Of a DNA stretch of 64,000 nucleotides, positions 32,051 to 34,569 are shown one piece after another (within the stretch, counting starts at the first letter, position 1; every line of letters starts with the position of its first letter). The translations under genes were made by a program, and so were the position numbers. Source of the DNA: Escherichia coli. GTDB lineage: Bacteria > Pseudomonadota > Gammaproteobacteria > Enterobacterales > Enterobacteriaceae. The notes beneath the pieces are model-generated. The model made no database searches, was not told where the DNA came from, and saw nothing but the letters and a program-made list of their open reading frames with translations. The stretch lies in NCBI RefSeq assembly GCF_044324875.1, contig NZ_CP172185.1, one strand, 5' to 3'.

Positions 32051-32808
32051 ACTTTCCCTCGCTATGTACCCGATCGTAAAAATTTCAGCAGCTTTTCTTG
32101 ACGCATCGGTGAAAAAGTCAATATTTAATACAGGGCTACTATGCCCGATATCCTTCATACAATGACAATAATATTGCCGAATTCGGCTCTTCCCTGGAGT
32201 CGTGTTAATGATCATAAAAAAAAGCGGTGGTCGCTGGCAGCTAAGCCTGCTGGTGAGCGTGGTAATCAGTGCCTTTTTTCTCAACACAGCTTACGCCTGG
32301 CAACAAGAATATATCGTTGATACGCAACCCGGACATTCCACAGAGCGTTACACCTGGGATAGCGATCATCAACCTGATTACAACGATATTTTGTCGCAAC
32401 GTATTCAAAGTAGCCAAAGGGCGCTGGGACTGGAAGTCAATCTGGCGGAAGAAACCCCTGTGGATGTGACCAGCAGTATGAGTATGGGCTGGAATTTTCC
32501 TTTATATGAACAGGTTACAACCGGCCCGGTCGCGGCATTACATTACGATGGCACAACCACCTCGATGTATAACGAGTTTGGCGACAGTACTACCACGCTA
32601 GCCGATCCGTTATGGCATGCCAGCGTGAGTACCTTAGGCTGGCGTGTTGACTCCCGGCTTGGCGATCTCCGACCCTGGGCGCAAATCAGCTATAACCAGC
32701 AATTTGGCGAGAATATCTGGAAGGCGCAATCAGGCCTGAGCCGGATGACGGCGACAATGAACTGCACCCCAAATGTTGGACATAATCTGACATCTGAAGG
32801 TGCAGTTT

Positions 32809-33330
32809 ATGAAACATTCATTTGAAGTAAAACTTGCCGCTGTAAATCACTACCTGGCTGGTCATGCAGGCATCATTTCTACGGCAAAACTCTTTCAACT
32901 TTCTCACACCAGCCTCTCACACTGGATTAATCTTTTTCTTCTTCACGGTCCTCGGGCACTGGATTGCAGACACAAGCGTAGCTATTCTCCTGAAGATAAA
33001 CTTTGCGTGGTTCTTTATGCTCTCGGGCATTCTGAGTCTCTACCCCGGGTAGCTGCCCGGTTTAACATTCCCAGCCACAACACGGTTAAAAACTGGATAA
33101 AAGGCTACCGCAAATCTGGTAATGAGGCCTTTATCAGGCGCTGGAAGGAGAAAAGCATGACCCGTTCTGATGATACCCATGAAAACGAGGCAAACATGAC
33201 GCCGGAAGAGATGAAGAATGAGCTGCGTTATCTTCGCGCAGAAAATGCATATCTGAAAGCCATGCAGGAGCATCTCCTGGAAAAAAAGCGCCAGGAGCTG
33301 GAGAAAAAACGAAAGTCATCCGGAGCCTGA
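32809..33330 (+). CDS. IS3-family transposase OrfA (HTH)
   Basis: MKHSFEVKLAAVNHYLAGHAGIISTAKLFQLSHTSLSHWINLF…; same architecture as IS150 InsJ. Confidence 0.85.
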   Translation: MKHSFEVKLAAVNHYLAGHAGIISTAKLFQLSHTSLSHWINLFLLHGPRALDCRHKRSYSPEDKLCVVLYALGHSESLPRVAARFNIPSHNTVKNWIKGYRKSGNEAFIRRWKEKSMTRSDDTHENEANMTPEEMKNELRYLRAENAYLKAMQEHLLEKKRQELEKKRKSSGA

Positions 33331-34157
33331 GGTGCGGACACTGCCAGTCTGACCTGTTAAAGGCTGCAGGGCTGGCCAGAAGCACGCTGTACTACCAGCT
33401 GTCACTGCAGAAGGCTAAGGACAAGTATGCTGATGTGAAACAGCTCATAGCCTCCATCTTCCATGAACACCGGGGATGTTATGGGTACCGGCGGATCCAT
33501 TGTGAGCTTCAGAAAAGAGGTCTTAAGTTCAGTGGCAAAACGGTGCGAAAACTGATGCAACAGCTCGGCCTGAAGTCTCCTGTGCGCCTGAAGAAATACC
33601 GGTCTTACCGGGGAAATATGGGACTCGCTGCAGAAAATATCCTTCAGCGGCAGTTCAAAGCGGAAGCTCCCTGTGAGAAATGGGTGACAGATATCACCGA
33701 ATTCAGGGCTGGCGGACAAAAACTGTACCTGTCCCCGATACTTGATTTGTTTAACGGGGAAATCGTGGCGTGGGAAACGGCCTGCAGGCCTACAGAGGAG
33801 CTGGTGAAGCGGATGTTAAATAAGGGGCTGGAAAGCCTTGCTGAAGGGGAGAAACCGCTGCTCCACAGTGATCAAGGATGGCATTACCGGATAAAAAGTT
33901 ATCAGTCCGCCCTGGCGGACAGAGGGTTAGTGCAGAGCATGTCGCGCAAGGGCAACTGCCTTGATAATGCGGTAATGGAGAACTTCTTTGGTCACCTGAA
34001 AGAAGAAATGTACTATCGCCGGGACTACAGAAATGTAGAAGAGCTGGAAAATGCCGTTAACGAATACATAACTTACTGGAATCAAAAAAGAATAAAACTC
34101 AGTCTTGGGGGACTCAGTCCGGTAGAATACCGGACTGAGCATCAAAAAGCCGGTTAA
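33288..34157 (+). CDS. IS3-family transposase OrfB (DDE integrase core), -1 frame relative to OrfA
   Basis: Frame open from 33222; contains …HSDQGWHYRI…[20 protein letters not shown]…; 5' boundary approximate, set at the aaaaaag frameshift site. Confidence 0.8.
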   Translation, partial: APGAGEKTKVIRSLRCGHCQSDLLKAAGLARSTLYYQLSLQKAKDKYADVKQLIASIFHEHRGCYGYRRIHCELQKRGLKFSGKTVRKLMQQLGLKSPVRLKKYRSYRGNMGLAAENILQRQFKAEAPCEKWVTDITEFRAGGQKLYLSPILDLFNGEIVAWETACRPTEELVKRMLNKGLESLAEGEKPLLHSDQGWHYRIKSYQSALADRGLVQSMSRKGNCLDNAVMENFFGHLKEEMYYRRDYRNVEELENAVNEYITYWNQKRIKLSLGGLSPVEYRTEHQKAG

Positions 34158-34569
34158 CTGAAACTGTCCAGGTTTTGGGGTTCAGTTCACAAACCAGAAC
34201 GGCAACTGGCTGGATGTCACCGTAGGCGCTGATATGTTGCTCAATCAAAATATTGCTGCCTATGCTGCGCTATCTCAGGCAGAAAATACCACTAACAATA
34301 GCGACTATCTGTATACGATGGGGGTTAGTGCCAGATTTTAACGTTATAGATACAATTGAAACCATTGAATAACAACAGTTGTGGCGATAGTGGGTGCTAA
34401 CTTACTAAATAATAAATTTGGTGAATAATTGTCGAGTCATTCATTCCTGAACTAATGCATTTCATTCCGTTCTGATGGCATTTCATGCCGTTTTTCCCCA
34501 GGCATAAAGTGCACTTCGTTATGGTTGTCAGCAGAGATTTTTCCTTTTTATTACTGCAGGAATACTGCC

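What the first reader, a model, noticed from the sequence alone, without database searches (positions are those of the whole stretch)
32758..34189. yhjY split by a second, IS150-like IS3-family element
Seen: a 1432-bp element with 22-bp imperfect inverted repeats and a CAA target duplication lies inside yhjY. Excising it plus one CAA restores an uninterrupted yhjY frame, so the insertion is clean and probably recent. The transposase is related to, but clearly distinct from, the IS150 copy 9 kb away. Inference: yhjY is inactivated. The element ends about 380 bp upstream of yhjX, so the yhjX promoter region is probably intact, but read-out transcription from the IS could matter.
Basis: seen in the sequence. 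Interest (0 to 1): 0.4.

Follow-up and report, generated by a model that had tools for sequence, protein, structure and literature searches.

The report
IS1397 insertion splitting the yhjY gene
A well-known E. coli jumping gene, IS1397, has cleanly interrupted the outer-membrane gene yhjY; this is ordinary, except that IS1397 normally lands only in intergenic REP palindromes and here it landed in a coding sequence that copies just one arm of such a palindrome.

Summary
A 1432-bp element at 32758-34189, flanked by a CAA duplication, splits yhjY. Removing it plus one CAA restores a 232-aa yhjY that is collinear with 5,420 of 5,426 complete E. coli genomes.

The element is not new. It is IS1397 (IS3 family), 100% identical to RefSeq copies of that name. 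Its OrfAB fusion, made at an A AAA AAG slippery site, exactly matches NCBI's IS1397 transposase. It differs clearly from the IS150 copy 8.7 kb away (OrfB 52% identical, no DNA similarity).

No complete RefSeq genome carries this insertion. The same left junction occurs in two NCBI draft assemblies, so it is real and lineage-specific.

In my sample, 34 of 40 distinct flanks show a GCC[G/T]GAT arm 16-18 nt from the IS end. The yhjY site has GCCGGATG exactly 18 nt from the left end but no complementary arm, so it mimics half a PU. Two intragenic rhs insertions follow the same rule.

The yhjX promoter, including both YpdB boxes, is intact. Verdict: a known element and a routine gene knockout, with a modestly interesting off-target site.

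The parts
32208..32757 (+). yhjY 5' fragment: codons 1-183 plus 1 nt (an alternative GTG start lies at 32202)
   Evidence: Pfam PF03797 autotransporter beta-domain on the restored protein, residues 88-209
32208..32825 (+). Truncated fusion ORF of 205 aa: YhjY residues 1-183 plus 22 IS-encoded residues. Its stop codon lies 14 nt after the orfA start codon
   Evidence: The exact protein is on record as SRB15966.1 'lipase [Escherichia coli]', on only 3 contigs
32740..32747 (+). GCCGGATG octamer identical to the outer arm of a PU/REP; it starts exactly 18 nt before the IS left end
   Evidence: 21 of 40 distinct natural IS1397 left flanks have GCC[GT]GAT at this same distance
32755..32757 (.). Left copy of the CAA target-site duplication
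32758..34189 (+). IS1397, complete 1432-bp copy
   Evidence: 100% identical over its full length to RefSeq copies annotated 'IS3-like element IS1397 family transposase'
32758..32782 (+). Left terminal inverted repeat (IRL), 25 bp
32809..33330 (+). orfA (173 aa), the HTH DNA-binding part of the transposase
   Evidence: Pfam HTH_28 and HTH_Tnp_1
33282..33288 (+). A AAA AAG slippery heptamer in the orfA frame; site of the programmed -1 frameshift
   Evidence: The fusion built at this site (449 aa) exactly equals NCBI IS1397 transposase proteins. A fusion built at the second A-run is not on record
33288..34157 (+). orfB frame (-1 relative to orfA): HTH_21 plus the DDE integrase core. Motifs TDIT, HSDQG and DNAVME are present
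   Evidence: NCBIfam NF033516 at 324.7 bits against a cut-off of 160; Pfam rve, rve_2 and HTH_21
34165..34189 (+). Right terminal inverted repeat (IRR), 25 bp
34190..34192 (.). Right copy of the CAA target-site duplication
34192..34341 (+). yhjY 3' fragment: codons 184-232 and the TAA stop, ending in the C-terminal ...GVSARF. The fragment has no in-frame start codon before its internal ATG (read by hand from the sequence, no tool run)
34456..34486 (+). Two YpdB boxes of the yhjX promoter (TGCATTTCAT and GGCATTTCAT, 11-bp spacer), intact
   Evidence: motif as given in PMC4847170
34570..35778 (+). yhjX (402-aa MFS transporter), 380 bp downstream of the IS and on the same strand

Best explanation
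A complete and apparently transposition-competent copy of IS1397 (IS3 family, closest to IS150) transposed into codon 183/184 of yhjY in the recent ancestry of a rare E. coli lineage, producing a 3-bp CAA duplication.

Shown: the element's identity; its intact OrfA and OrfAB with an A AAA AAG -1 frameshift site; the DDE core; the duplication; the exact empty site; and the same junction in independent assemblies.

Inferred from IS3-family knowledge: transposition went by copy-out/paste-in through a circular intermediate.

Inferred from comparing sites: the target was chosen because the yhjY coding strand carries GCCGGATG, the outer arm of IS1397's normal PU/REP target, exactly 18 nt from the IS end. 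This is the commonest geometry at genuine PUs. The other arm is absent, so half a target was enough.

Consequences: YhjY loses its last 49 residues. That removes part of the beta-barrel domain and the C-terminal ...ARF typical of outer-membrane proteins, so it is very probably non-functional (inferred). yhjX keeps its own YpdB-dependent promoter. Transcription reading out of the IS toward yhjX is possible but unproven.
For: - **Identity:** the element is 100% identical over 1432 bp to RefSeq IS1397 copies; 1,707 of 5,426 genomes carry a copy covering at least 80% of the element.
- **Transposase:** the 449-aa OrfAB fusion equals NCBI 'IS3-like element IS1397 family transposase' exactly. NF033516 scores 324.7 bits; rve and HTH domains are present.
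- **Duplication and empty site:**
- **Independent junctions:** the junction is present in GCA_002467655.1 and GCA_958308375.1. It is absent from all 5,426 complete genomes.
- **Target rule:** RefSeq copies L001-L004, L006 and L007 sit in PU loops; four of them show 4-bp duplications, while L001's duplication is unclear. 34 of 40 distinct metagenome left flanks have GCC[GT]GAT 16-18 nt from the left end, 21 of them at 18 nt.
- **Chance expectation:** about 0.0024 for such an arm within 16-18 nt of either end.
- **Intragenic precedents:** rhs insertions L058 and L060 also have GCC[GT]GATG at exactly 18 nt. The L058 junction recurs in RefSeq strains NRZ14408 and isolate 362.
- **yhjY domain:** PF03797 covers residues 88-209 and the cut falls after residue 183.
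- **yhjX promoter:** both YpdB boxes are intact.
Against: - The PU resemblance is weak beyond the octamer. A position weight matrix built from 19 genuine 18-nt-class flanks scores the yhjY flank -0.75 (top 0.34% of window positions), against 11.7-26.9 for real PUs. The right flank scores -32.8.
- Two perfect, unoccupied PUs lie in the same window, at 3724-3753 and 39336-39367.
- Some natural insertions show no arm at all: L029 in a PTS gene, L070 in a non-PU hairpin, and L053.
- The two rhs precedents are at homologous positions, so they are not fully independent as sequences.
- Loss of YhjY function and any effect on yhjX are inferred, not measured.
- The primary IS1397 papers could not be read.
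Confidence: 0.85

Rival explanations
1. IS1397 landed in yhjY at random. The GCCGGATG octamer 18 nt from the end is a coincidence, and the event is plain PU-independent transposition.
For: The PWM score of the flank is far below that of genuine PUs, and the right flank has no arm. L029, L053 and L070 show that IS1397 can insert without the motif. PU-independent transposition of IS1397 has been reported for Yersinia pestis; I saw only the title of Wilde et al. 2002 in a reference list.
Against: The chance of GCC[GT]GAT at 16-18 nt from either end is about 0.0024, and GCC[GT]GATG occurs at 1.3e-4 per position. Three of four intragenic insertions examined carry the octamer at exactly 18 nt.
Confidence: 0.3
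2. The target was recognised as a DNA hairpin or cruciform (structure) rather than as a sequence; some stem-loop in yhjY mimics the PU hairpin.
For: Normal targets are hairpin loops. L070 is an insertion in the loop of a non-PU GC-rich hairpin with a GAG duplication. The restored yhjY site folds at -9.8 kcal/mol, z = -2.07.
Against: In the predicted fold, the CAA lies in the stem/internal-loop region, not in a hairpin loop. 6 of 200 shuffles fold as well. The left arm has no complementary partner.
Confidence: 0.1
3. The insertion was selected, either for loss of YhjY or for altered yhjX expression through transcription reading out of the IS, rather than being a neutral accident.
For: The allele is shared by at least three assemblies of one lineage. 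The IS, yhjY and yhjX all point the same way, and no terminator-like site lies between the transposase stop and yhjX.
Against: No new promoter-like site appears at the right end. The yhjX promoter is unchanged. The allele is absent from 5,426 complete genomes. Sharing within a clone needs no selection.
Confidence: 0.1
4. The junction is an assembly artefact: an IS copy misplaced into yhjY.
For: None specific. IS copies are a common cause of misassembly.
Against: There is a perfect 3-bp duplication and an exact empty site. The identical left junction appears in two independent NCBI assemblies.
Confidence: 0.01

Closest known systems
IS1397 (IS3 family; described in E. coli natural isolates by Bachellier, Clement, Wilde and co-workers)
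   Same: 100% nucleotide identity over 1432 bp to RefSeq copies of that name. Identical 449-aa OrfAB, TG...CA ends, and a 3-4 bp duplication.
   Different: This copy is not in a palindromic unit of a BIME, the reported specific target (PMC1525189). It sits inside a coding sequence that has only one PU-like arm.
IS150 (copy at window 22627-24069)
   Same: Same family and architecture: two ORFs, a -1 frameshift and a 3-bp duplication. The terminal repeats are similar (TGTACTGCACCC...TTGGAC against TGAACTGCACCCC...TTGGAC).
   Different: OrfB is only 51.7% and OrfA 28% identical. There is no DNA-level match. Lengths are 1443 and 1432 bp.
ISKpn1 (Klebsiella pneumoniae IS3-family element specific for Klebsiella PUs)
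   Same: A PU-targeting IS3-family relative. The title of Wilde et al. 2003, seen in reference lists, says the transposases determine target specificity.
   Different: It has a different host and PU type.
IS621 (IS110 family, REP-targeting)
   Same: Also inserts at a specific site in E. coli REP sequences (PMC1525189).
   Different: It belongs to an unrelated family with a different recombinase and has no DDE/rve domain. From my own knowledge, its targeting is RNA-guided. It shares only the target class.

Membership tests
IS1397 | Near-identical nucleotide sequence over the whole element to copies named IS1397 | tested here: met
   100% over 1432 bp to at least 18 RefSeq copies annotated 'IS3-like element IS1397 family transposase'. 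The ISfinder reference itself was not available.
IS1397 | Transposase protein identical or near-identical to the IS1397 OrfAB | tested here: met
   The 449-aa fusion at A AAA AAG exactly equals NCBI proteins named IS1397 family transposase.
IS1397 | Insertion into the loop of a palindromic unit (REP) of a BIME | tested here: not met
   Only a left-arm octamer is present. The PWM scores -0.75 on the left and -32.8 on the right, against 11.7-26.9 for true PUs, and the site is inside the yhjY CDS. This is a property of the insertion event, not of the element's identity.
IS3 family | DDE (rve) catalytic core with an upstream HTH, matching the family model above its cut-off | tested here: met
   NF033516 at 324.7 bits against 160. 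Pfam rve, rve_2 and HTH_21. TDIT, HSDQG and DNAVME motifs present.
IS3 family | Two overlapping ORFs joined by a programmed -1 frameshift | tested here: met
   orfA 32809-33330; -1 frame open over 33288-34157; canonical A AAA AAG in the orfA frame. Frameshifting itself was not assayed.
IS3 family | Imperfect terminal inverted repeats ending 5'-TG...CA-3' and a 3-4 bp target duplication | tested here: met
   21 of 25 bp inverted repeats, TG/CA ends, and a CAA duplication.
IS3 family | Copy-out/paste-in transposition via a circular intermediate | not testable with these tools
   Mechanism inferred from family knowledge only.
IS150 (the element itself) | High nucleotide identity to IS150 | tested here: not met
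   No blastn match to the IS150 copy in the window; OrfB 51.7% identical.
Autotransporter beta-barrel domain proteins (YhjY) | Match to the autotransporter beta-domain model above the gathering score | tested here: met
   PF03797 at 46.7 bits against 26, residues 88-209. TIGR01414 at 21.9 against 16. RefSeq names the orthologues yhjY.

The most novel reading that the evidence does not exclude
One outer PU arm, the octamer GCC[G/T]GATG placed 18 bp from the IS end, may be sufficient for IS1397 to choose a target. The hairpin and the second arm would then be dispensable. Coding sequences that contain the octamer by chance (yhjY here; the homologous G-R/L-M codons of rhs genes) would be predictable, recurrent off-target sites. 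This would make linear sequence read by the transposase, not DNA structure, the determinant of REP-specific targeting in this IS3-family group.
Probability: 0.45. Interest if true: 0.4.

Novelty: already known. Interest (0 to 1): 0.22.

Why it matters
For annotation, the element should be named IS1397 and yhjY flagged as a pseudogene in this lineage. The junction is a ready-made clonal marker: it is absent from 5,426 complete genomes and the fusion ORF is present on only three public contigs.

For IS biology, the site is a natural experiment. A REP-specific element inserted where only half of its target exists, with the normal spacing. Together with the rhs insertions, this points to the outer arm octamer as the recognition element. 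That is a cheap, directly testable hypothesis about how IS3-family transposases find REPs.

For physiology, the pyruvate-responsive yhjX promoter is intact, so any change in yhjX expression would have to come from transcription reading out of the IS.

Tried and rejected
- **Primary IS1397 papers** (PMC94167, PMC169884, PMC135288, PMC95333): none is held in the library. The known specificity therefore rests on PMC1525189, on reference titles, and on my own flank survey.
- **Fixed orientation of the IS relative to the asymmetric PU:** suggested by the first RefSeq copies examined (L001-L004, L006, L007). Rejected, because metagenome flanks show both arms (GATGCGGCG and GATAAGGCG) next to the left end.
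- **A complete PU at the yhjY site:** rejected by the PWM and by inspection of the right flank.
- **Hairpin mimicry:** weak (z = -2.07), and the duplication is not in a loop.
- **A hybrid outward promoter, or a terminator between the IS and yhjX:** the pattern scan found neither.
- **Finding the source genome:** the scan of GTDB species representatives with the left-end 24-mer did not return the window. It returned only one E. coli PU-flanked copy and unrelated elements sharing the terminal 24-25 nt.
- **Look-up of the GTG-start (207-aa) version of the fusion ORF:** not on record.
- **Look-up of YhjX:** it is too common to identify the lineage, but it supplied ten empty-site references.
- **Structure prediction of YhjY:** skipped as not decisive.

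Full report
**1. The observation**

The sequence shows TGAACTGCACCCC... starting at 32758 and ...GGGGTTCAGTTCA ending at 34189, a length of 1432 bp. CAA lies immediately before it (32755-32757) and immediately after it (34190-34192). The ends are imperfect inverted repeats that match at 21 of 25 positions and have the TG...CA termini of the IS3 family.

Deleting the element and one CAA gives an open yhjY of 232 aa from the ATG at 32208. The restored 707 nt align in a single ungapped piece with the gene RefSeq calls yhjY ('autotransporter outer membrane beta-barrel domain-containing protein'). This holds in 5,420 of 5,426 complete E. coli genomes, the best at 99.9%. Ten empty-site loci fetched through the YhjX protein all read GAGCCGGATGACGGCGACAAACCAGAACGG, with a single CAA.

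**2. What the element is**

A megablast of the 1432 bp finds 100% identical full-length copies in many RefSeq E. coli chromosomes, all annotated 'IS3-like element IS1397 family transposase'. Of the 5,426 genomes, 1,707 carry a copy covering at least 80% of the element.

orfA (32809-33330) carries HTH_28 and HTH_Tnp_1. The -1 frame (33288-34157) carries HTH_21, rve and rve_2, and matches NCBIfam's IS3 transposase model at 324.7 bits against a cut-off of 160. A canonical A AAA AAG heptamer sits in the orfA frame at 33282-33288. The 449-aa fusion built there is, residue for residue, an NCBI protein named IS1397 family transposase. A fusion built at the second A-run is not on record.

Its OrfB is 51.7% and its OrfA 28% identical to those of IS1397, and blastn finds no DNA similarity. 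'IS150-like, related but clearly distinct' is correct; the name is IS1397.

**3. How common this insertion is**

Junction queries made of 300 nt of flank plus 300 nt of IS find no genome among the 5,426 that covers either junction. The 205-aa YhjY-IS fusion ORF is on record as SRB15966.1, 'lipase [Escherichia coli]', on only three contigs. Two of those contigs were fetched. They match the window across the left junction at 100% (3677 nt, GCA_002467655.1) and with one mismatch in 3770 nt (GCA_958308375.1).

The insertion is therefore real and has been assembled independently. It is confined to a rare lineage. That lineage's flanking DNA is only 97.8-98.9% identical to the best complete genomes.

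**4. Why the site is unusual**

IS1397 is reported to insert specifically into REP sequences, the palindromic units of BIMEs (PMC1525189). I could not read the primary papers, so I rebuilt the rule from data.

- RefSeq copies L001-L004, L006 and L007 sit in PU loops. An example is ATGCCGGATGCGGC-GTTA|IS|GTTA-ACGCCTTATCCGGC. Four of these copies show a clean 4-bp duplication; L001's duplication is unclear.
- A metagenome scan with the left end returned 61 loci with 40 distinct left flanks. Of these, 34 have GCC[GT]GAT starting 16-18 nt before the IS, 21 of them at exactly 18 nt. Either arm of the PU can face the left end.

The yhjY flank reads GCCGGATGACGGCGACAA|IS. It has the octamer GCCGGATG at exactly 18 nt and a 3-bp duplication at positions 16-18. 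This is the same geometry as PU insertions such as L024 (GCCGGATGCGGCGTGAAC|IS|AAC...). The resemblance stops there:

- The inner arm is out of register.
- A PWM built from 19 genuine flanks scores the yhjY flank -0.75, which is the top 0.34% of window positions. True PUs score 11.7-26.9.
- The right flank scores -32.8, so it has no complementary arm.
- Folding of the restored site is unremarkable, and the duplication is not in a loop.

The site is therefore a half-PU mimic inside a conserved coding sequence (codons S-R-M-T-A-T-N). In this window, the chance that a random junction has GCC[GT]GAT 16-18 nt from either end is about 0.0024.

**5. Precedents**

Three of the 40 distinct metagenome flanks are intragenic:

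| Locus | Gene hit | Left flank |
|---|---|---|
| L058 | rhs gene (RHS_repeat, E = 9e-75) | GCCGGATGGTGGCGCACC\| with ACC duplication |
| L060 | DUF6531/RHS gene | GCCTGATGACCGAGCATC\| |
| L029 | PTS EIIBC gene | no motif |

The two rhs hits are at homologous positions of divergent genes, and both place the octamer at exactly 18 nt. The L058 junction recurs next to yibF in RefSeq strains NRZ14408 and isolate 362. There the flanks differ by 2-2.7% but the IS by only 0.2%. That pattern fits either a hot spot or an old insertion followed by recombination.

With GCC[GT]GATG at 1.3e-4 per position, three of four intragenic insertions carrying it at 18 nt is very unlikely by chance. My inference, with about 0.6 confidence, is that the outer arm at a fixed distance guides IS1397 and that half a target can suffice. 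Three observations count against a strict rule. L029, L053 and L070 (the loop of a non-PU hairpin) lack the octamer. Two perfect PUs in this window (3724-3753 and 39336-39367) are unoccupied. The sample is small.

**6. Consequences**

The insertion falls after codon 183 of 232, inside the autotransporter beta-domain match at residues 88-209. The resulting 205-aa product ends in 22 IS-encoded residues and lacks the native C-terminus ...GVSARF. From established knowledge of outer-membrane protein assembly, a C-terminal aromatic residue is needed for efficient barrel insertion. Inactivation is therefore the likely outcome, but it is inferred.

The 3' fragment has no in-frame start before an internal ATG; I read this by hand from the sequence, without running a tool. 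The yhjY stop (34339-34341), the 228-bp intergenic region and both YpdB boxes (TGCATTTCAT at 34456-34465; GGCATTTCAT at 34477-34486; motif from PMC4847170) are intact. yhjX starts at 34570, 380 bp from the IS.

IS1397, yhjY and yhjX are co-oriented. The pattern scan finds no terminator-like site between the transposase stop and yhjX, and no new promoter-like site at the right end. Read-through is possible but unsupported.

**7. Comparison and verdict**

The element is a member of IS1397 by every sequence criterion tested. The one feature not met, insertion in a PU loop, concerns this particular event and not the element's identity. Nothing here is a new kind of system.

The finding is a correctly described, routine IS knockout of a gene of unknown function. 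Its added interest is that a REP-specific IS was caught in a coding half-site. Interest is 0.22 and novelty is 'already known'.

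Noticed in passing
window 22627-24069: Complete IS150 copy (1443 bp, AAG target duplication). The same site is occupied in many RefSeq E. coli, because the 12.7-kb flank aligns collinearly through it.
   Followed up: partly
window 47224-48972: Four tandem 483-bp direct repeats, 93-100% identical to the reference copy. Each encodes a 35-aa peptide (MTLAELGMAFWHDLAAPVIAGILASMIVNWLNKRK; the fourth copy differs at two residues). This looks like a four-copy LDR (ldr/rdl type I toxin-antitoxin) array; from K-12 gene order recalled from memory, it lies between what are probably yhjV and bcsG (not checked).
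   Followed up: partly
window 20000-46000: The flanking DNA is only 97.8-98.5% identical to the best of 5,426 complete RefSeq E. coli, and 97.8-98.9% to ten other empty-site loci. The source is a rarely sequenced lineage. It was not found among the GTDB species representatives.
   Followed up: partly
window 3724-3753 and 39336-39367: Two canonical palindromic units (GCCGGATGCGGCTAAAACGCCTTATCCGGC and GCCTGATAAGACGCGCCAGCGTCGCATCAGGC) are unoccupied by IS1397. They are far better matches to its target than the yhjY site, which is 5.1 kb from the second one.
   Followed up: yes
L058; L093 (NZ_CP158426.1); L094 (NZ_OW967178.1): An rhs::IS1397 insertion next to yibF, with the same ACC duplication at GCCGGATGGTGGCGCACC, recurs in a metagenome contig and in two RefSeq strains. 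Flanks differ by 2-2.7% but the IS by only 0.2%. This is either a hot spot or an old insertion followed by recombination.
   Followed up: partly
L070 (metagenome OHQM01005509.1): IS1397 sits in the loop of a GC-rich, terminator-like hairpin that is not a PU (GCCCCTCCGGAGAGGGGC), with a GAG duplication. Here structure without the PU sequence served as the target.
   Followed up: no
L005 (NZ_CP139196.1, strain GN25, T6SS DUF4123/vasI region): A full IS1397 copy with no PU and no target duplication (flanks ...CATACAG and TTACCCG...). This may be the product of an IS-mediated rearrangement or deletion.
   Followed up: no
window yhjY site, L058, L060, L029: In all four intragenic IS1397 insertions examined, the transposase points the same way as the disrupted gene. 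In the three with the octamer, it is read in the same frame (xGC CGG/CTG ATG). The sample is too small to interpret.
   Followed up: no
L008, L011-L019 (Yersinia aldovae, Serratia nevei, and MAGs labelled Bacteroidetes, Lachnospiraceae and Acholeplasmataceae): The exact 24-25-nt IS1397 left terminus occurs at the ends of otherwise unrelated sequences in distant taxa. The Serratia copies share 85% identity with IS1397 over 77 nt. The Yersinia aldovae locus also has a weak match (65% over about 258 nt) to the right part of IS1397. The MAG loci share only the terminus.
   Followed up: partly
E. coli genomes: About 1,780 RefSeq genomes have only partial (under 80% coverage) IS1397 matches at 95-99% identity, typically one per genome. 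This suggests a widespread conserved IS1397 remnant at some locus.
   Followed up: no
L085 (ENA ERZ28762363 contig_2): In one of the ten empty-site references, yhjY is called as two fragments (32 aa and 148 aa). This is either an independent disruption or a long-read indel error.
   Followed up: no
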